Source: a virus (lineage: Duplodnaviria; Heunggongvirae; Uroviricota; Caudoviricetes). From it: a DNA stretch of 11,419 bases. The stretch lies in IMG/VR virus record IMGVR_UViG_2648501437_000008. The stretch is one strand, 5' to 3'. The notes under the pieces are model-generated. The model ran no database searches and was not told the origin of the DNA. It worked only from the letters and a program-made list of their open reading frames with translations. Positions within the stretch are counted from its first letter, which is position 1. Each line of letters starts with the position of its first letter. The translations under genes were made by a program, and so were the position numbers. Below are positions 1 through 11,419 of the stretch, piece by piece.

Positions 1-253
1 CCTGTGGGCCTGCCGGGCCTGCCGCACCGGTATCTCCCTTTGGACCCTGTGGACCTGCATTTCCCGTCAGACCGGTCTCTCCCCGCTCTCCCCTGTCACC
101 TTTCGGCCCCTGCGGGCCTGCCGGACCAGCATCACCTGCCGGTCCCCGCTCACCGGTTGCCCCGACAGGACCGGTGTCACCACGCTCTCCCTTATCACCC
201 TTCGGCCCCTGAGGACCCGCGGGCCCCGGTTCCCCCTTTGGCCCGGGAGGTCC
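1..253 (-). repeat. Collagen-like Gly-X-Y triplet repeat region inside stf (at least 28 consecutive triplets, continuing past the window edge)
   Basis: Minus-strand translation of 253..2 reads [84 protein letters not shown]. At DNA level this gives short direct repeats such as gggcctgccg gggcctgccg near 8..25. Confidence 0.8.
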
Positions 254-1003
254 CACCACGATGGGGATTCGGTTTACGGCCTCTTCCGCCGCTATCCTGC
301 TTTGTTCCGCTGACTGTGCGCTTTCTGCTGACTCCCGGGCTTTTTCTGCTGCGGTCGTTGCATCCCTGGATGCATTACCGGCTGCACTTTCTGCCGTCTT
401 TCTTGACAATTCAGCTTCTGCTGCACTTTGTGATGACTCACTGGCTTTTTGAGCGGCCGCAGAAGCCGAGGACGAGGACGCATCCTCTGACTGCTTTGCT
501 GAGGCTGCACTTTCTGCCGCCTGCCGGGCTGACTCCGATGCATCCCCTGCTGAAGTGTCAGCATTTGCAGCGCTCGCTTCCGCCTGACTGGCTGATATGC
601 CGGCATTCCTCGCTGACGTCTCCGCCTCTCCGGCATTCTTCTTCGCCTCCTCAGCGTGACGCGCCACCTCTTCCACCATCAGTTCAAAACGGCGCAGTGC
701 CTCCGGCCGGACATCATCCTCCGTCATTGCACCGAGGAAATCATTCAGTGTGCCCGGCTTTGAGTCCTCATACACGGTGATAATCCCGGCATGTGACGGC
801 GGAAATCCCTCCACCAACAGAATGACGCTGTACTGACCGTACTCAACGTCCATGCTGTAACGACCGGCTTCATCCGGATTTTCAGAGGCCACCGTGTTCA
901 CCACCACCGTGCTGCTGGTCCGTCTGGCCTTCAGCTGAATGGTGCAGTTCTCTACCGGTTTTCCTGTGCCGTCTTTCAGTACACCTGAAATCTTTACTGC
1001 CAT
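1..1003 (-). CDS. stf: Side tail fibre protein Stf, N-terminal ~334 codons; the 3' end of the gene lies beyond the window start
   Basis: ATG at 1003..1001 preceded by GGGGTGA Shine-Dalgarno-like motif. Manual translation of the minus strand gives [62 protein letters not shown]..., which matches my recollection of the lambda Stf N-terminus. It continues into an Ala/Ser/Glu-rich low-complexity segment and then uninterrupted Gly-X-Y triplets, open to the window edge. Absent from the ORF track because no stop lies inside the window. Confidence 0.85.
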
Positions 1004-1737: not shown

Positions 1738-4700
1738 TCAACGAATACTGATGCCGGAAGCGGCTTTTTTGGTCACAATCACCGTACAGTCGGTGATATT
1801 ACCTGCCCACTGATTGCCTTTATGGAAAACCTTAAACTCCAGAGTGACGCTACCACCACCACTAGACATATCAATAACCGCACTGTAACTACCGGGAATG
1901 GCCCCTTTAGTTTCTCTGGATGCGATTAATACACCGTTTTTGCGAACTTCAAAACCATAACCCGTGTAACTTGTACCTCCCGGGTTATTACCACTTCCCG
2001 GATAGCTATACGCTATTCCGTTAAAGATAATGGGCGGAATAATGATTTGACGGTCAAAGTTATGATCATCACTGATGGTGACTGTAACCGTCCCGTTTGG
2101 TGTTTCCGTGTTACCCCACGTACCAGCCTGTTTCGGAAATGATTTGGATACAGCTTTAACGAAATCACCTCTGACCTGAGTCGCCTCCAGCATGCCCTTA
2201 ATCGTACAGTTTTCATTTACCGTGACATTGTTGAGCGTCCCGGCGTTCGCATTCACACTGCCACTGATATCCGCATTTTTAGCAGTCAGCTTTCCGTCTG
2301 ATGTCAGGGAAAATGCCGGTGGATTGCCACCGCTGGTAATGGTGGGGGCCGTCAGGCGCTTCAGGAACACGTCGTTCATGAATATCTGGTTGCCCTGCGC
2401 CACAAACATCGGCGTTTCATTCCCGTTTGCCGGGTCAATAAACGCGATACGGTTAGCGGCAACCAGAAACTGGCTCAGCTTGCCTTCCTCCGTGTCCTCC
2501 ATGCTGAGACCAATACCCGCGACATAATGTTTGCCGTCTTTGGTCTGCTCAATTTTGACGCCCCACATGGCATTCCACTTATCGTTAGCGTCCTTCCACT
2601 CTTTCGAAAACTCCTCCAGTTTGCTGGCGTTATCCTCCGTCAGCTCGACTTTTTCCAGCAGCTCCTTGCCGAGATGGGATTCGGTTATCTTGCCTTTGAA
2701 AAAATCCAGGTAACCTTCCGCATCATCGCTCGCCCGACCGACGGCCTCCACGAATGCCGATTTGCCAACGGTGTTCACACTGCGGATATAAAAGTAATAA
2801 TCATGGCCCGGTTTGATATTGATACTGGCGGCTATCCAGTACAGCCCCGTGCCAAGGTAGCGGGCTGTGGTTTCAACCTGCCTGATATCGGTAATCCGCT
2901 TTTCCGAGAACCAGAACTCAAACTGTACCGTCGGATCATAAACAGCAAGATGCGGCGTCGCAGTTATCTGAAAATAGCCCGGCGTCAGCTCAATAGTGAC
3001 AGGCGCTGCCGGTGCCGCAATCCGGAACGATACCGATGCCGGATCGCCCTGCTGCCCCCACGCATTTACCGCCCGGACTGTCAGCCTGTAACGCCCCAGC
3101 GCCAGTTGCGTGAAGCGGTATGTGGTTTCCGTCGTCCGGGCCGTGCTGACCAGCCGCTCACTGCCGTCATCCGCGGCCACGGTCAGACGAAGCAGAAAAC
3201 TCACCCCCTTCACCACCTTCGGCGTGTCCCAGCGCGCCAGCACCTGATACTCCCCGCTGTCTGCGGTGACTTCGGCAGTCAGGTGCTGCACCGCTGGCGG
3301 CGTGACACCATTCACCGTGCCACTCTGGTCGCCGTCAAAGTGCGCCCCGTTATCCACGATGGCCTCTTTTTCCGGCACATGCTGCACGGCGGTGACAGCA
3401 TACGTGCCGTCGTCGTTCTCACGGACACTCACGCAGCGGAACAGGCGCTGGCGCAACGTCGGCAGCTTCAGCCCCCATACGCTGTATTCAGCAACACCGT
3501 CAGGAACACGGCTCACTTTTACCTTCACGCCGTCGGTGACGGACTGAACCTCCACGCTGACCGGATTGCCACTTCCGTCAACCAGGCTTATCAGCGTGGT
3601 ACCGGAGGATGGCAGCGTGATTTCACGGTCGAGCGTCAGCGTCCGGGTCTGGCTGTTCACCGCCAGCACACGACCACCGGTGCTGATACCGGCATAGTCA
3701 TCATCACAGATTTCAATGACATCGCCCGGCACATGGCGAAGCCCTTCGGCACCCACGCAGAAGTCCACGGTCTGCGTTTCCAGCAGTTCTGTTTTAATCA
3801 GCCACAGCCCGGCGCGGTGCGCCTGCCCCCGGCTGGTACAGCCAAAAGCATCCATCTTCGTGACGTTACGACCGTAACGGACAATGGCCTGCGTATCCTC
3901 AACAAGCTCTGTCGCCGTCTCCCAGCCGTTATCCGGGTCAATCCAGTTCACCTCAACGGCATTATGGCGGTCTTTCAGGGCGCTAAAGCTGTAGCGGAAC
4001 GGCGCGCCATCATCCGGCATCACCACATTACTGCGGTTATAGGTCCACACCTTATCCGACGGCCGGTCCTGCACGAACGTCAGCGTCTGCCCGTTCCATA
4101 CCGGCATACAGCGCATCGCCGAGCAGAAATCACTGAGCACATCCCACGCCTTGCGCTGTGTGGTCAGGTACGCATTACAGGTGATGCGCGGCTCCGTGCC
4201 GCCAAAGCCGTCCGGCACCGACTGGTCGCAGTACTGGCCGATGACATACAGCGCCCATTTATCCACATCCGCCGCACCAAGACGTTTCCCCATGCCGTAG
4301 CGCGGGTGGGTCAGCATATCCCACAGACACCAGGCCATGTTGTCGCTGTACGCTGGCTTAAACGTTCCGTCCCAGATACCGCTGTATTGCCGCGTCTGCG
4401 GGTCATAGTTCGACGGCACCTGCAGAATGCGCCCGCGAAGATGATAATTACGGCTCACCTGCTGGCTGCCGAACTGCTCAGAGTCCACCTGCACGCCGAC
4501 CAGTGCCGTGTTCGGGTAGCACTGTTTCACATCGATGATTTCGGTATACGAGGACCAGATTGTTTTGTTCTGCAGCTGGTCTGTGGTGCTGTCCGGCGTC
4601 ATCCTGCGCATCCTGATACTGAACGGTCGCGGCGGCAGCTTATCCACCACCACCGAGGCCAGATACTGTGAGGTGGTTTTGCCCTTAATGGTGATGTCTT

Positions 4701-7227: not shown

Positions 7228-7556
7228 CAGTTCACCACCTGTTCAAACTCTGCGCTGAACTCAACACGCAGCATACTGACCCGCGACGACCATTTTGCGC
7301 AGGTCACCTTTATCTGCCGCCACTCATAAGGCGGCGTCCACAGAAAGGCTTTCCAGCCCCCGTGCTCAGCCAGAAACGACTCCAGCGCCGTGGCCTCCCA
7401 ACGGGGAACAGAAAACGTCACGCTGTACGTTTTCAGGTTGGAATTCAGCCCGGCAGGCGCTCGCTGGGAATAGCCATCACCAAAGCGCACCTTTCTTACA
7501 GAAGGGGCCGAAGCCACATCCATACCGGGTTTCACTTTCCAGCGGAAGGTTTTCAT
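7227..7556 (-). CDS. M: Minor tail protein M, 109 aa
   Basis: Translation MKTFRWKVKPGMDVASAPSVRKVRFGDGYSQRAPAGLNSNLKTYSV... is near-identical to lambda gpM as recalled. ATG 7556..7554 overlaps the H stop (ATGA). GGAGG Shine-Dalgarno at 7567..7563, 6 nt upstream. Confidence 0.93.
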   Translation of the reverse strand: MKTFRWKVKPGMDVASAPSVRKVRFGDGYSQRAPAGLNSNLKTYSVTFSVPRWEATALESFLAEHGGWKAFLWTPPYEWRQIKVTCAKWSSRVSMLRVEFSAEFEQVVN

Positions 7557-10500
7557 CGTCCACCTCCGGAGAACAGGCCACCATCACGCATCTGTGTCTG
7601 AATTTCATCACGGGCACCCTTGCGGGCCATGTCATACACCGCCTTCAGAGCAGCCGGACCTATCTGCCCGTTCGTGCCGTCGTTGTTAATCACCACATGG
7701 TTATTCTGCTCAAACATCGCCATACCTGAACCACCAATATTTGCCACAACCCCCAGCTTACCGTCAGCACCACGGCGCAGTGGCAGAATGGCTTCAGGTC
7801 CCGCTTCCCCCATCACACCCGCGCCTTTTGCAAAAGCAAAAAACGTCGGTCGGTTAACCACCGTGCCGCTGTAGCGACTCAAATCAGCCGACTGATAAAC
7901 GCCACCATCAGCATTGGGCGTCACACTGGCAGCGGCAGCACTCCCCCAGCCAAACGCCGAACCAATCCCCTTCACCGCCTGCATCATGGCCATCTGCGCC
8001 ATAATTTTTGCCAGATCGGAAAGGAGTGAGGCGGTAAAAGATTTGAAGTTCAGTTTTCCGGTGGTACAGAAGGTCGCCAGTGCATTACCAGCACTGTTAA
8101 ATGCCGCTGTAAGCATCTGCTCAGCAGTGCCTGCCGCATTATCCGCATCTGCCGTGAAATTCTGAAACGCCCGCATGGCACCGTTTTTCCAGTTACCCTG
8201 AGCAATTTCAAGCTGTTGCCAGTAACGGCGATTCTCATTCAGTTGTCGGTTCAGGCTCTCCGTCAGCGCCTGCTCGGCCTTTCTGTAGTCATCCGTGTTA
8301 TATGTCCCTTTCTGCTCACTATCCCGCCTCAACTGCTCCAGCTGTTGCTGGTATTTCTGGCGAAGACTCAGTTGTACCTGATATCGCTGCCGCTGCTGAT
8401 CACCCATACCCACCGTGGCGATATCCAGGTCATGTTGCTGACGCTGAGCGCGCTCTTCTTCAGCCAGTTGACTGGTCAGCTGAATTGTTTTTTTCTTCAG
8501 ATCGTTGAGTGCCGTCTGTTTCTGAAGCTCCTGCTGTTTTACATCCAGCAGCGTCAGTGCCTGAATCAGTTCATCTTTACTGGCCAGCACACTCTTTTCA
8601 TCTGCCGTCAGTTTTTTCCCGTCCAGGTCGCTGATGCGCTGCTGCAGAGCCAGAAGCTGTTTATGCGCTTCTGTCATCCTTTCCGTGGCAATGCCTGCTG
8701 ACTGTCTGGCAGCAGCAATCTGTCCTTCCACCTGTGCCTGTTGCTGACTGTACTGCAGCAATAACCGGGTGGCCTCATCATTACGGGTTTCGCGTGTTTT
8801 TTTCTTACCGGATGCCAGGGCTTTCTCGTAACGTTCATTTTCACGTTGTATCGCCGCATCCCTGACAGCCTGATCGGCGTACTGCATGGCATTAATACGC
8901 GCAATTTCACGCTGATGTCGTGCTGCTTCCGTTTCATTCATCCGGTTCAGTGCAGCATTTTCAGCATTACGGCGTTTCTGTTGCTCCTGATAATTCCGCT
9001 CTGCCTGCTCTTTTGCATCCTGCAAATCCTTCTGGCGTTTTTTCTCCTGAAGATCGTTAAGACGCTGCTGATCGTATTCAACCTGAGAAGATGATGCCGT
9101 CCAGGGGAGTCTTTTCGCCCGCGACACTTTCTCCTGTAAAGCGGCAATCTGTTCATCCAGCGAGTCTTCACGACCAATATTCATGGCCGCATCCCAGAAA
9201 CGACTCCATAAATCAGACAGATACTTCAGCGTACTGCCCAGCGCATTGAGGTTATTATCAATATCCGCAGTACGCCGACCGGTTTCCTCTGCCAGTGCAG
9301 ACATGGCTATCCGTGCCGCATCACTGGACCGCCCCTGATCCCCAAGGACGCGTATCTGCTCAAGCTGAGTGGCAGTAAGAAAATGCAGCTCATTGTCCAG
9401 AGCCTTCGCGGCATTTACAGGATCATCCTTCAGCCGCTTAAACTGATTTATGGTATCGCTGACCGACTGGCCAACCGATCGCTCCATCTGTGCGGCAGCT
9501 CTCGCCACCATACCGATATCGTTTCCACGAAATGCACCACTCCCCACCACCTGAGCCAGCGCACCGGCTGCAGCATGTTGCGTGATACCATTCCCGGAAA
9601 TAGCACGACTGAGCGTCCACAGCTGCCCGGCAGTGACTCCGGCATAATGCCCCGTCAGTGATAGCTGGCGGTTAAATTCTTCCCCCTCCTTCTGACCGTC
9701 ATACCAGGCTTTACCCAGACCATAGACGGCCGCGGCAATACCGCCAATAACCGCTCCTGGCATCATGCCTTTCGGTGACATCAGTGTGTCTATCCATCCG
9801 GCACGGTTAGCCAGCGTTATCCCGGATCCCCTCAGCGCTCCTAAATTGCCACGGGCCAGTTCACCTATCAGAACGCCTATCTCCTGGCGGGCTGCTGCAC
9901 TTTTCAGACCCAGCGAATGCGTGGCTTTTCCTGCCTGCTCCATTTTGCGGATATACACTTCTGCAGCACTGCTTACCCCTAGCTGGGCTGCCCTGGCACG
10001 AAGCAACTCAGAAGATGAAAGATTCTGGCGGGTTGCCTGCTCTTTAAGCTGACGGATAAACGCCACTTTCTGTCGGGTAGCCTCTTCCTCAGCCTGTGTA
10101 AGAACACGGGTTTTCGCAGTAACCTCAGAAATCAGCGCCAGATAATCCTGCTGGCCAATCCCGCCACTGTTTCTGGCCTGTCGGATCTGCTGCTGAATAC
10201 GCTGTAATTCCTGTAGCCCCGCACTGGCCTGTTTCACACTGTCAATCTGACGATAAAACGCAGCAGCCGCTTTATCCTGAGCCTCCGCCAGAGCCATGGC
10301 CTGCGCCTGTTCCTCGCGCATTTTCTGGCTCAGTGCCTCCATGCGCTGGCGGGTTTTCTCCACCTCGCGGGCCATGCGTTCATGAGCCTGTGCGTTCTTC
10401 TCCACCGTCTGCGCATGGACGGATGCGGCTGTTGCAGCCGAAGAAGCCGCCTGCGTTGTCTGCCTGGCGGCCTGAGTCTGACGCTCCATAAAACGCTGCA

Positions 10501-10627
10501 TACGGGCAGAAGACCGTTCTGCATCGCTGGCTGCACCATTCAGAAGGTTTTTGATACGGGGAATTTCATTTTTAAACTCTGCCGCATCAATCCCCAAATC
10601 AATGACCAGGTTGGCTATCTGGTCCAT
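7553..10627 (-). CDS. H: Tail length tape measure protein H, about 1024 aa (longer than lambda gpH)
   Basis: Start assigned to ATG 10627..10625 (MDQIANLVIDLGIDAAEF...) because GGAGG sits 8 nt upstream at 10640..10636. The track start at 10657 is a TTG and is rejected. The C-terminus FEQNNHVVINNDGTNGQIGPAALKAVYDMARKGARDEIQTQMRDGGLFSGGGR matches the lambda gpH C-terminus as recalled. The long Q/E/R/A-rich N-terminal half is predicted coiled coil and diverges from lambda. Confidence 0.88.
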   Translation of the reverse strand: MDQIANLVIDLGIDAAEFKNEIPRIKNLLNGAASDAERSSARMQRFMERQTQAARQTTQAASSAATAASVHAQTVEKNAQAHERMAREVEKTRQRMEALSQKMREEQAQAMALAEAQDKAAAAFYRQIDSVKQASAGLQELQRIQQQIRQARNSGGIGQQDYLALISEVTAKTRVLTQAEEEATRQKVAFIRQLKEQATRQNLSSSELLRARAAQLGVSSAAEVYIRKMEQAGKATHSLGLKSAAARQEIGVLIGELARGNLGALRGSGITLANRAGWIDTLMSPKGMMPGAVIGGIAAAVYGLGKAWYDGQKEGEEFNRQLSLTGHYAGVTAGQLWTLSRAISGNGITQHAAAGALAQVVGSGAFRGNDIGMVARAAAQMERSVGQSVSDTINQFKRLKDDPVNAAKALDNELHFLTATQLEQIRVLGDQGRSSDAARIAMSALAEETGRRTADIDNNLNALGSTLKYLSDLWSRFWDAAMNIGREDSLDEQIAALQEKVSRAKRLPWTASSSQVEYDQQRLNDLQEKKRQKDLQDAKEQAERNYQEQQKRRNAENAALNRMNETEAARHQREIARINAMQYADQAVRDAAIQRENERYEKALASGKKKTRETRNDEATRLLLQYSQQQAQVEGQIAAARQSAGIATERMTEAHKQLLALQQRISDLDGKKLTADEKSVLASKDELIQALTLLDVKQQELQKQTALNDLKKKTIQLTSQLAEEERAQRQQHDLDIATVGMGDQQRQRYQVQLSLRQKYQQQLEQLRRDSEQKGTYNTDDYRKAEQALTESLNRQLNENRRYWQQLEIAQGNWKNGAMRAFQNFTADADNAAGTAEQMLTAAFNSAGNALATFCTTGKLNFKSFTASLLSDLAKIMAQMAMMQAVKGIGSAFGWGSAAAASVTPNADGGVYQSADLSRYSGTVVNRPTFFAFAKGAGVMGEAGPEAILPLRRGADGKLGVVANIGGSGMAMFEQNNHVVINNDGTNGQIGPAALKAVYDMARKGARDEIQTQMRDGGLFSGGGR

Positions 10628-10949
10628 AACGCACACCTCCGGAAATACCTTCCCCAAGATGCATCAGTTCTTCGTCCGTTCGCTCCGGTATCCCGTTCTC
10701 TTCCGGTAAAAGGCTGAAATCAGCCACCGCAGCATCACTGCTGCCGGACACCATTCTCACGATCAATGCCTTCAGCGAGGCAAACTGCGCATCCATCCAC
10801 ACATCACTGAAGCTCTGCATCCGGAAATAATCGCCCCACTCACCAAGCTCAGTGGCCGACATTTCCGACAGCATCCGCCGCCAGTCTGCCCGCCGGAACT
10901 CCCGGGCAAGCCGCATGACAAACTGCATTTCCCGCGTCAGGACTTTTCC
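10599..10949 (-). CDS. T: T-frame portion of the G-T tail assembly chaperone fusion, reached by programmed -1 frameshift from G (no independent start assumed)
   Basis: The ORF in the -1 frame relative to G is open from 10961 to the stop at 10601..10599. It overlaps the last 8 codons of G and overlaps the H start by 27 nt. The frame relationship and position between G and H are exactly as in lambda G/G-T. Translation ...VLTREMQFVMRLAREFRRADWRRMLSEMSATELGEWGDYFR... is consistent with lambda T as recalled. Confidence 0.75.
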   Translation of the reverse strand, partial: GKVLTREMQFVMRLAREFRRADWRRMLSEMSATELGEWGDYFRMQSFSDVWMDAQFASLKALIVRMVSGSSDAAVADFSLLPEENGIPERTDEELMHLGEGISGGVRYGPDSQPGH

Positions 10950-11323
10950 GGCGTCAGCACCTCATGCTCCAGATCCCCGGCATTCTCAATGGCTCCCATA
11001 CCGCTCAGCGACAGAACCATCTCCGCCCCCGCTCCCAGGGCATCATACGACCATGTTGTAATAACGGATGCGCAAAGCGTCTCAACATCCTGAGACTGTT
11101 CCGCATTCCACAGTGAGCGGGAAACCAGCCAGGCATTGATATCCATCCCCATCCGCAGAAAAGCAATCTGTCGTTCAGCCTCCGGCAGTTCTCCCTCTTC
11201 GGCATCAAACTTTGCCGTTCGCTGCTGAACAAACGCCAGATATTCAATTCTCTGCAGCCCGGACAGCTCACTGAGCACCACGGACTGCTTTTCATAATTA
11301 AACGTGCCCTGTTTCAGAAACAT
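10937..11323 (-). CDS. G: Tail assembly chaperone G, about 128 aa
   Basis: Start assigned to ATG 11323..11321 (MFLKQGTFNYEKQSVVLSELSGLQRIEYLA...), which parallels the lambda gpG N-terminus MFLKTESFEHNGVTVTLSELSALQRIEHLA as recalled. The ORF is open further upstream (track start 11407), but that would add 28 residues with no lambda counterpart. TAA TGA stops in another frame at 11417..11412 are consistent with the V stop at the window edge and a ~90-nt V-G spacer as in lambda. Stop TGA at 10939..10937. Confidence 0.7.
   Translation of the reverse strand: MFLKQGTFNYEKQSVVLSELSGLQRIEYLAFVQQRTAKFDAEEGELPEAERQIAFLRMGMDINAWLVSRSLWNAEQSQDVETLCASVITTWSYDALGAGAEMVLSLSGMGAIENAGDLEHEVLTPEKS
10943..10949 (-). 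promoter_or_regulatory. Candidate -1 programmed ribosomal frameshift slippery heptamer G_GAA_AAG (G/GT recoding site)
   Basis: Minus-strand mRNA reads ...CUG ACG CCG GAA AAG UCC UGA in the G frame; the heptamer GGAAAAG lies two codons before the G stop. The -1 frame is open through this site into T. Lambda uses GGGAAAG at the equivalent place. Confidence 0.55.
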
Positions 11324-11419
11324 CGTAAGCGTCGTCTCAGCACCGTCTGGCAGATCCTGAAATTCCTGAGAGAATAGTGGACACCAAATATGGTGGACGC
11401 TATCCATGAAATCATTAAC

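What the first reader, a model, noticed from the sequence alone, without database searches (positions are those of the whole stretch)
10937..10961. G/G-T recoding site uses GGAAAAG rather than the lambda GGGAAAG heptamer
G and the -1-frame T ORF share only a 25-nt window (10937..10961) before the G stop, so any frameshift must occur there. The only slippery-like element is G_GAA_AAG. The A-site A_AAG to AAA slip by tRNA-Lys is the efficient half in E. coli. The P-site codon changes from GAA to GGA, which requires tRNA-Glu to re-pair with a mismatch at the middle position, unlike lambda's GGA to GGG. This predicts a functional but possibly different G:GT ratio, which matters because that ratio is tied to tail assembly.
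Basis: partly seen in the sequence, partly recalled or inferred. Interest (0 to 1): 0.5.

Follow-up and report, generated by a model that had tools for sequence, protein, structure and literature searches.

The report
Known GGAAAAG frameshift site in tail genes
The G/T tail-chaperone genes of this lambda-like prophage overlap at a GGAAAAG slip site that is real and conserved, but it is a common form in this gene family, already annotated in phage N15, and this copy sits next to an IS insertion that removed the start signals of G.

Summary
On the minus strand, G (PF06894) stops at 10939..10937. The -1 frame carrying T (PF06223) opens at 10961. The only in-phase slippery motif in that overlap is G_GAA_AAG (10949..10943).

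It is not unusual. The N15 GenBank record annotates GGAAAAG, at the homologous position, as the -1 slippery sequence. Among 39 lineage representatives, 28 use GGAAAAG, 9 use lambda's GGGAAAG and 2 use AAAAAAG. The sample was seeded with GGAAAAG-type queries. The heptamer always lies 13 codons before the LAREF motif. The T frame has no conserved start codon. So T is most likely made as a G-T fusion by a -1 slip: tRNA-Lys moves AAG to AAA, and tRNA-Glu moves GAA to GGA with a G·U pair.

Published in vitro work shows G_GAA_AAG is less slippery than G_GGA_AAG. The window's clade conserves a Shine-Dalgarno-like GAGG exactly 10 nt upstream, the dnaX spacing, and has no 3' structure. This is a candidate compensating stimulator and is inferred only.

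In this copy an IS66-family element abuts G at 11325. It removes G's ribosome-binding site, so expression here is doubtful.

Verdict: already known, low interest.

The parts
11325..11419 (+). End of an IS66-family insertion sequence. The terminal repeat GTAAGCG... starts at 11325. The first transposase ORF starts at ATG 11406 and runs off the window. It replaces everything upstream of G.
   Evidence: 100% match over 98 nt to IS66-family elements in Stx2a phages (H18-H20). Annotated context. The alignment with intact phages Ayreon and mEp460 shows the breakpoint ...CGCTTAC|GATGTTT.
10937..11323 (-). G, tail assembly chaperone, 128 aa. The ATG at 11323 is the second ATG of the native ATGATG start. 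The stop TGA is at 10939..10937.
   Evidence: PF06894 Phage_TAC_2, E = 3e-39. 98-99.6% DNA identity to mEp460, Ayreon, phi458 and cdtI. Native start and SD shown.
10958..10963 (-). Shine-Dalgarno-like GAGGTG inside G. Its GAGG core ends 10 nt before the heptamer. It is a candidate 5' frameshift stimulator (inferred).
   Evidence: Anti-SD duplex of -9.2 kcal/mol. 12 of 15 lineages of this clade have an element of -5.5 kcal/mol or stronger at 6-11 nt spacing. The clade mean is -6.84 against a null of -2.9 +/- 0.7.
10962..10964 (-). TGA in the -1 frame that closes the T frame upstream. It sets the 5' limit of the overlap.
   Evidence: Translation of the -1 frame.
10943..10949 (-). Slippery heptamer G_GAA_AAG, the site of the programmed -1 frameshift.
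   Evidence: Only in-phase A_AAG in the overlap. Identical heptamer annotated as the slippery sequence in N15. Fixed position relative to the T domain in all lineages.
10599..10943 (-). -1 frame part of the GT fusion (T domain). Base 10943 is read twice. The first -1 codon is GTC at 10943..10941 and the stop is at 10601..10599. The predicted GT protein is 241 aa.
   Evidence: PF06223 Phage_tail_T, E = 5e-15. The -1 frame protein aligns without gaps from the heptamer across all lineages.
10926..10928 (-). ATG used by database annotators as the start of a separate T gene. It is probably not a real start.
   Evidence: Annotated as the T start in mEp460, Tritos and RefSeq E. coli. Not conserved in relatives. 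Best anti-SD pairing is -4.3 kcal/mol at 0 nt spacing.
7553..10627 (-). H, tape measure protein, the binding partner of G and GT. It starts at ATG 10627 and overlaps the end of T by 29 nt.
   Evidence: PF06791, PF24622 and PF09718. GGAGGTG lies 7 nt upstream of the ATG. Gene order as in mEp460.

Best explanation
This is the G/GT programmed -1 ribosomal frameshift site of a mEp460-type lambdoid prophage. It is homologous in position to lambda's G_GGA_AAG and differs by one base.

Most ribosomes read ...CCG GAA AAG TCC and stop at TGA, giving G (128 aa). With GAA in the P site and AAG in the A site, a minority slip back one base. tRNA-Lys (anticodon mnm5s2UUU) re-pairs from AAG to its preferred AAA. 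tRNA-Glu (mnm5s2UUC) re-pairs from GAA to GGA with a G·U pair at the middle position. Reading then continues GTC CTG ACG..., giving a 241-aa G-T fusion with junction ...LTPEK|VLTREMQ.

By analogy with lambda, G and the G part of GT coat the tape measure protein H. The T part recruits the major tail protein.

G_GAA_AAG is intrinsically weaker than G_GGA_AAG. I therefore infer that the conserved GAGG(TG) 10 nt upstream pairs with the 3' end of 16S rRNA in the translating ribosome and raises slippage, as in dnaX.

- Shown here: the anatomy, the homology, and the conservation of the heptamer and of the SD-like element.
- Inferred: that slippage occurs, its rate, the tandem versus single-tRNA mode, and the SD-like effect.

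In this copy the IS66 insertion at 11325 has removed G's SD, its first ATG and its link to the upstream V gene. The site is intact but probably poorly expressed here.
For: - G is PF06894, the -1 ORF is PF06223, and H follows.
- The overlap is limited to 25 nt and holds a single in-phase A_AAG.
- N15 record AF064539 annotates GGAAAAG as 'slippery sequence for -1 translational frameshift' at the homologous place. The Gifsy-2 record, with the same CCG GAA AAG TCC TGA, annotates T as part of a frameshift hybrid.
- All 255 loci have exactly one in-phase A_AAG in the overlap. Of 39 lineage representatives, 28 have GGAAAAG, 9 GGGAAAG and 2 AAAAAAG.
- The C-terminal P-E-K of G is invariant down to 54% identity, while the preceding linker varies.
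- The -1 frame protein aligns without gaps from the heptamer (GK[VA][LF]xxExxF..LAREF). There is no conserved start codon.
- Viable phages carry the identical junction: mEp460, Ayreon, phi458, cdtI, Tritos, N15, HK225, mEp213 and Gifsy-2.
- Literature: A_AAG is the best -1 tetramer in E. coli (PMC4066793). The G·U penalty is modest (PMC6787027). G GAA AAG shifts, though less than G GGA AAG (PMC6924986).
- SD-like element. The 10-nt spacing matches dnaX (PMC6924986, PMC5009743).
Against: - No protein or reporter data exist for this heptamer in any phage that I could read. Xu 2004, Levin 1993 and Licznar 2003 are not held.
- In vitro, AUG GAA AAG gave mainly 0-frame product at all EF-G concentrations (PMC6924986). 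The A_AAG tetramer alone is near background in vivo (about 0.15%, PMC4066793). Adequate GT synthesis is therefore not guaranteed without a stimulator.
- The SD-like conservation cannot be fully separated from conservation of a Glu residue. N15-type GGAAAAG phages lack it.
- The lineages compared are related, so the permutation P-values are optimistic.
- In this copy the IS insertion makes any expression uncertain.
Confidence: 0.78

Rival explanations
1. Single-tRNA slippage. Only tRNA-Lys slips on A_AAG, as in the tetramer or hexamer type seen in IS1222 (G_CGA_AAG) and B. subtilis cdd. The P-site tRNA-Glu does not genuinely re-pair on GGA. The conserved G at heptamer position 1 would then matter for some other reason.
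For: A_AAG alone can drive -1 shifts, and natural sites with a non-re-pairing 5' codon exist (PMC5009743). One natural variant, L209, has G_GCA_AAG, where P-site re-pairing is worse still. The peptide product would be identical.
Against: GAA, never GAG, appears in all 28 GGAAAAG lineages, and G ends the preceding codon whether it is Pro, Ala or Leu. That points to selection on the P-site codon and its -1 partner GGA. The known A_AAG-only sites use strong 3' pseudoknots or hairpins (PMC4066793), and none is present here.
Confidence: 0.25
2. T is translated on its own from ATG 10928, as database annotation implies, and no frameshift is needed.
For: GenBank and RefSeq annotate T from this ATG in mEp460, Tritos and E. 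coli genomes.
Against: The ATG is specific to a sub-lineage. The first in-frame ATG is at codon 4, 7, 10, 11, 17 or 25 in relatives. Residues encoded between the heptamer and the ATG (V-L-x-x-E) are conserved in the -1 frame. There is no properly spaced SD. In lambda, T is made only as GT (PMC5009743, citing Levin 1993).
Confidence: 0.04
3. In this particular genome the site is an intact but silent relic. The IS66 insertion between V and G has cut the tail operon, so neither G nor GT is made in useful amounts and the prophage cannot build tails.
For: The native terminator hairpin, the GGTGGAG SD and the first ATG upstream of G are replaced by IS sequence. The IS transposase genes point away from G. 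No complete E. coli genome among 5,426 contains this IS/G junction, while 1,837 carry the uninterrupted G/T. The insertion is therefore rare and probably recent.
Against: The G, T, H, M, L, K, I and J reading frames in the window are all still open. Read-through transcription across the IS, and translation from ATG 11323 or from the chimeric ATG 11407, cannot be excluded.
Confidence: 0.55
4. The shift happens at the RNA level, by transcriptional slippage on the A run, rather than on the ribosome.
For: None specific. The motif contains four consecutive A residues.
Against: By general knowledge, four A residues are far below the run length at which bacterial RNA polymerase slips. The phase-specific conservation of G_GAA_AAG, including AAG rather than AAA, fits tRNA re-pairing rather than run length.
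Confidence: 0.01

Closest known systems
Phage lambda G/GT -1 programmed frameshift (G_GGA_AAG; Levin, Hendrix and Casjens 1993; Xu, Hendrix and Duda 2004, 2013, as summarised in PMC5009743)
   Same: Homologous G (PF06894) and T (PF06223) proteins and the same G-T-H order. The slip site is at the same position, 13 codons before LAREF/LAREM in the -1 frame. The A-site half A_AAG is the same. T has no start of its own.
   Different: Heptamer base 3 is A, not G. The P-site tRNA is therefore tRNA-Glu re-pairing GAA to GGA with a middle-position G·U, instead of tRNA-Gly GGA to GGG. G ends one codon after the heptamer instead of five. There is an SD-like GAGG 10 nt upstream, which lambda lacks. The possible 3' structure seen in the lambda/N15 clade is absent.
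Phage N15 genes 14/15 (GenBank AF064539), slippery sequence annotated as GGAAAAG
   Same: Identical heptamer G_GAA_AAG in the same phase and homologous position in a G/T pair of the same Pfam families.
   Different: G proteins are about 36% identical. In N15 the preceding codon is GCG (Ala), not CCG (Pro). The G stop lies five codons downstream. There is no SD-like element, and a possible 3' long-range stem starts 7 nt downstream.
E. coli dnaX -1 frameshift (A_AAA_AAG with internal SD 10 nt upstream and 3' stem-loop)
   Same: The A-site codon AAG and tRNA-Lys slip are the same. An SD-like element lies at the same 10-nt spacing: AGGGAG+10 nt in dnaX and GAGG+10 nt here (PMC6924986 mRNA sequences).
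   Different: The P-site codon is GAA rather than AAA, so re-pairing is imperfect. There is no 3' hairpin. The expected efficiency is a few percent rather than 50-80%. The product is a fusion extension, not a truncation.
A_AAG tetramer or hexanucleotide -1 sites (IS1222 G_CGA_AAG, B. subtilis cdd A_CGA_AAG, IS3)
   Same: They rely on A_AAG and tRNA-Lys with a 5' codon that cannot re-pair canonically (PMC5009743, PMC4066793).
   Different: Here the 5' codon can still form three pairs (G-C, G·U, A-U) after the shift. Those IS sites use strong 3' structures, and this one has none.

Membership tests
Lambda-type tail assembly chaperone G/GT -1 frameshift | Upstream ORF is a gpG-family chaperone | tested here: met
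   PF06894, E = 3.3e-39, residues 29-141 of the 156-aa ORF. Homologues are named phage tail assembly chaperone G.
Lambda-type tail assembly chaperone G/GT -1 frameshift | A gpT domain is encoded in the -1 frame, overlaps the end of G, and has no conserved start of its own | tested here: met
   PF06223, E = 5.1e-15. The -1 phase was verified from the sequence. The position of the first ATG varies among relatives.
Lambda-type tail assembly chaperone G/GT -1 frameshift | Located between the major tail gene and the tape measure gene | tested here: inconclusive
   The tape measure gene H follows directly. The major tail gene lies upstream in intact relatives. In the window it is replaced by an IS66 end.
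Lambda-type tail assembly chaperone G/GT -1 frameshift | Slippery sequence in the overlap at the conserved position | tested here: met
   G_GAA_AAG lies 13 codons before LAREF, in the same register as lambda's G_GGA_AAG. It is annotated as slippery in N15.
Lambda-type tail assembly chaperone G/GT -1 frameshift | A G-T fusion protein is actually produced at a few percent of G | not testable with these tools
   This needs a reporter assay, western blot or mass spectrometry.
Canonical X_XXY_YYZ tandem-slippage heptamer | Bases 1-3 are identical, so the P-site tRNA keeps two Watson-Crick pairs after the shift | tested here: not met
   Bases 1-3 are G, G, A. The P-site re-pairing GAA to GGA needs G·U at the second codon position (PMC6924986).
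Canonical X_XXY_YYZ tandem-slippage heptamer | Bases 4-6 are identical with a permissive base 7 (A_AAG) | tested here: met
   AAA G at 10946..10943. A_AAG is the most shift-prone tetramer in E. coli (PMC4066793).
dnaX-type stimulated -1 frameshift | Internal Shine-Dalgarno-like sequence about 10 nt 5' of the shift site | tested here: met
   GAGGTG at 10963..10958, with a 10-nt spacer after GAGG and -9.2 kcal/mol against the anti-SD. It is conserved in 12 of 15 clade lineages. Its function was not tested.
dnaX-type stimulated -1 frameshift | Stable stem-loop 5-9 nt 3' of the shift site | tested here: not met
   Single-sequence fold z = -1.77. RNAalifold on 15 clade members gives -1.97 kcal/mol and no compensatory pairs.

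The most novel reading that the evidence does not exclude
One homologous recoding site has swapped its helper signals during evolution. The mEp460/Gifsy-2 clade, which includes this window, pairs the weak heptamer G_GAA_AAG with a dnaX-like internal Shine-Dalgarno element exactly 10 nt upstream and has no 3' structure. The N15/lambda/CP-1639 clade lacks the SD-like element. Instead it conserves a long-range stem that starts 7 nt after the heptamer. Close relatives of the window's clade with the strong heptamer G_GGA_AAG (Serratia and Symbiopectobacterium prophages) have neither the SD-like element nor a need for it. If true, the G:GT ratio is held constant by compensating changes in heptamer and stimulator.
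Probability: 0.3. Interest if true: 0.5.

Novelty: already known. Interest (0 to 1): 0.2.

Why it matters
The value is mainly practical.

- **Annotation.** RefSeq and most GenBank records, including copies in 1,837 of 5,426 complete E. coli genomes, annotate T as a separate gene from a non-conserved ATG and do not join G to T. Motif finders restricted to X_XXY_YYZ miss this site.
- **Natural evidence for a weak site.** The family survey shows that a heptamer with a middle-position G·U in the P site is used across many lineages of viable phages. That complements in vitro work that treats G GAA AAG as the 'poor' control.
- **A simple experiment.** The SD-like element at dnaX spacing offers a direct test of stimulator compensation.

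None of this changes the picture of G/GT frameshifting established for lambda.

Tried and rejected
- **3' stimulatory structure in the window's clade.** The single-sequence fold is not significant (z = -1.77). RNAalifold on 15 lineages finds nothing. The structure conserved in the N15/lambda clade is not kept here (51.6% of cells paired, like the slid controls).
- **Rfam.** No family matches anywhere in the window.
- **Terminator-like sites in 10400..11419.** None found. The 'terminator' annotated inside T in the mEp460 record therefore got no support.
- **Single-ORF G-T proteins in the database (P0032, P0049) as natural mimics of the frameshift product.** They are internal in-frame deletions, not 1-nt changes at the heptamer, so they say nothing about the junction.
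- **Literature.** Searches for GGAAAAG or G_GAA_AAG with phage and slippery terms found only Peng et al. 2019. Xu 2004 and Licznar 2003 could not be opened. Levin 1993 was not looked up and is known here only through the review PMC5009743. I therefore could not check whether GGAAAAG is listed or measured there.
- **Source genome.** No complete E. coli genome or phage record contains the IS66/G junction.
- **Independent T initiation and transcriptional slippage.** Both were considered and rejected (see rival explanations).

Full report
**1. What is in the sequence**

The tail genes lie on the minus strand.

- The frame one base behind has a TGA at 10964..10962. It is then open to a stop at 10601..10599, reading GADAGKVLTREMQFVMRLAREF....
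- The two frames therefore share 10961..10937, which is 25 nt, as stated.
- The only in-phase slippery element is G_GAA_AAG at 10949..10943.
- Pfam identifies the upstream protein as lambda gpG (PF06894, E = 3e-39) and the -1 ORF as gpT (PF06223, E = 5e-15). The next gene is a tape measure protein.
- M, L, K, I, J and Lom homologues follow.

**2. A correction at the 5' end**

Megablast against phage records matches window 11324..10560 at 98-99.6% to mEp460, Ayreon, phi458, cdtI and Tritos. Window 11419..11322 instead matches IS66-family elements at 100%.

An alignment with the intact phages shows their native sequence upstream of G. It consists of a terminator hairpin after the major tail gene, a GGTGGAG ribosome-binding site and ATGATG. 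In the window all of this is replaced by the IS end ...CGCTTAC, joined directly to GATGTTT.

The first IS transposase ORF starts at 11406 on the plus strand and points away from G. So the ATG at 11407 that opens the 156-aa ORF is IS sequence. The phage part of G starts at ATG 11323 (128 aa) and has lost its SD.

No complete E. coli genome or phage record contains this junction, while 1,837 of 5,426 complete E. coli genomes carry the uninterrupted G/T at 95% identity or more. This copy is probably a recently disrupted prophage.

**3. Is GGAAAAG unusual? No.**

The N15 GenBank record (AF064539) carries a misc_feature 'slippery sequence for -1 translational frameshift'. The bases under it are GGAAAAG, in the same phase and position. 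The Gifsy-2 record, whose junction is the same CCG GAA AAG TCC TGA, labels T as part of a frameshift hybrid protein.

I collected 358 loci from IMG/VR, GTDB genomes, GenBank phages and assemblies.

- In the 255 loci of the first three scans, every one has exactly one in-phase A_AAG in the G/-1 overlap.
- Among 39 lineage representatives, 28 have G_GAA_AAG. These include mEp460, Gifsy-2, N15, HK225, mEp213, Eeyore, a Symbiopectobacterium prophage and many uncultured contigs.
- Nine have G_GGA_AAG: lambda, Turner, PhiR5_1, Stx2a phages, and Serratia and Symbiopectobacterium prophages.
- Two have A_AAA_AAG: CP-1639 and an Stx1a phage.
- One contig has G_GCA_AAG.
- A scan seeded with lambda G returned 79 loci, all at 96% identity or more and all with GGGAAAG.

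Both forms are therefore abundant by copy number. My lineage sample is biased by the seeds I chose. Even so, GGAAAAG spans more and deeper lineages, with three different preceding codons (CCG, GCG, CTG).

**4. Evidence that it is the functional site**

- The last residues P-E-K of G are invariant down to 54% identity, although the 20 residues before them vary freely.
- At the DNA level, AAG (not AAA) is used in 39 of 39 lineages, against 42% AAG elsewhere in these genes. GAA (not GAG) is used in all 28 GGAAAAG lineages. The preceding codon always ends in G, whatever amino acid it encodes.
- The -1 frame protein aligns without gaps from the heptamer in all lineages (GK[VA][LF]xxExxF[VA][ML]xLAREF), with the heptamer always 13 codons before LAREF/LAREM.
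- The first in-frame ATG wanders (codon 4, 7, 10, 11, 17 or 25).
- The ATG at 10928 that annotators use for T has no properly spaced SD. Its best pairing is -4.3 kcal/mol at zero spacing. The H start, by contrast, has GGAGGTG 7 nt upstream.
- Plaque-forming or inducible phages carry exactly this junction. Under the lambda paradigm GT is essential for tails (PMC5009743).

I could not open the primary papers. The functional claim therefore rests on homology, conservation and established lambda biology.

**5. Mechanism**

After a tandem -1 slip, tRNA-Lys moves from AAG to AAA. This is the favourable half in E. coli: A_AAG is the best tetramer in PMC4066793, and the G·S to A·S change gains about 2.9 kJ/mol in PMC6787027.

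tRNA-Glu moves from GAA to GGA. It keeps G-C and A-U and forms G·U in the middle.

Peng et al. 2019 (PMC6924986) used exactly AUG GAA AAG as their 'less slippery' control beside AUG GGA AAG. With wild-type EF-G it gave mainly 0-frame product, and it shifted more when translocation was slowed. The A_AAG tetramer alone is near background in vivo and needs a stimulator (PMC4066793).

The intrinsic rate here should therefore be lower than lambda's.

**6. Possible stimulators**

No 3' structure was found. The single-sequence fold is unremarkable (z = -1.77). RNAalifold on 15 lineages of the window's clade finds essentially nothing (-1.97 kcal/mol, no compensatory pairs).

On the 5' side the window has GAGGTG at 10963..10958. 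This is a perfect 6-mer match to the SD consensus, and the GAGG core ends 10 nt before the heptamer. That is the spacing of the dnaX internal SD (mRNA sequences in PMC6924986; PMC5009743).

- Across 15 lineages of this clade (G ending PEKS*, PEKP* or AEKY*), 12 have an element of -5.5 kcal/mol or stronger at 6-11 nt spacing, although the surrounding residues differ.
- The clade mean is -6.84 kcal/mol. Random positions give -2.9 +/- 0.7 in the same G genes and -3.7 +/- 0.6 in the same acidic linker. None of 20,000 resamplings reached the observed mean.
- Where the codon supplying GAG encodes Glu, it is always GAG. The background is 46% GAG.
- N15-type, lambda-type and Serratia-type sites lack the element.

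This is suggestive of a dnaX-like stimulator. However, the lineages are related, a conserved Glu could explain part of the signal, and nothing was measured.

**7. Noticed in the sister clade**

In the N15/lambda/CP-1639 clade, RNAalifold predicts a -24.3 kcal/mol structure. Its outer helix starts 7 nt after the heptamer (columns 15-22 with 78-85). Of all cells, 97.7% are paired, against 27-43% for slid controls. There is one compensatory A-U/G-C pair, most likely a single event.

The same pairs are only 51.6% formed in the window's clade. Most pairs are invariant because the region encodes LAREF..DWR, so this is a lead and not a finding.

**8. Comparison and verdict**

The site works like lambda G/GT and belongs to that family by every criterion I could test, apart from two gaps. 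The canonical X_XXY_YYZ rule is tested and not met. Production of the fusion protein cannot be tested here.

The exact heptamer at the homologous position is already annotated in N15. The finding is therefore already known.

The added points are:
- the prevalence of GGAAAAG across lineages;
- the candidate SD-like stimulator;
- widespread mis-annotation of T as a separate gene;
- the IS66 disruption of this copy.

Interest is low (0.2).

Noticed in passing
window 11325..11419 (+), junction at 11324/11325: An IS66-family element abuts the G start. It replaces the native terminator hairpin, the GGTGGAG SD and the first ATG of G. The 156-aa 'G' ORF from ATG 11407 is a chimera of IS and phage sequence. 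No complete E. coli genome or phage record searched has this junction.
   Followed up: yes
L098:699-798 (N15), L005:610-709 (lambda) and 19 other loci; alignment A6, columns 15-22/78-85 and 41-50/67-76: The N15/lambda/CP-1639 clade conserves a possible long-range RNA structure that starts 7 nt after the heptamer (-24.3 kcal/mol consensus, 97.7% of cells paired, one compensatory A-U/G-C pair). It is not kept in the window's clade. Coding constraint (LAREF..DWR) confounds it.
   Followed up: partly
window 10926..10928 (-); L001, L003, L004 annotations: GenBank and RefSeq annotate T as a separate CDS from a non-conserved ATG and do not join it to G. This appears in mEp460, Tritos and E. coli genomes. 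Ayreon starts T at yet another codon.
   Followed up: partly
L209 (IMGVR_UViG_3300048929_000058), G/T junction: A single N15-like contig has G_GCA_AAG instead of G_GAA_AAG. This is either a tolerated weaker site, a defective copy or a sequencing error.
   Followed up: no
L014, L015, L016 (Serratia marcescens and Symbiopectobacterium prophages): Distant relatives with the short G C-terminus (…TPGKS*) use lambda's G_GGA_AAG and lack the upstream SD-like element. The two heptamers therefore interconvert within both clade types. In L016 the T frame is only 87 codons in the overlap-based count (81 from the heptamer) and may be truncated.
   Followed up: partly
proteins P0032, P0049, P0001, P0003 (homologues of G): The database holds G-T single-ORF proteins made by internal in-frame deletions. 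It also holds a G with an internal duplication and a G fused to an upstream ORF. These are probably decaying prophage copies or assembly artefacts.
   Followed up: partly
window 4..780 (+): A 258-aa ORF on the opposite strand, beyond the lom homologue, has no Pfam match.
   Followed up: no
window 2899..2905 and 9925..9931 (-): Two further GGAAAAG copies lie inside J and H. I did not check their phase or whether a -1 ORF follows. The heptamer count in the window (3) is not above chance.
   Followed up: no
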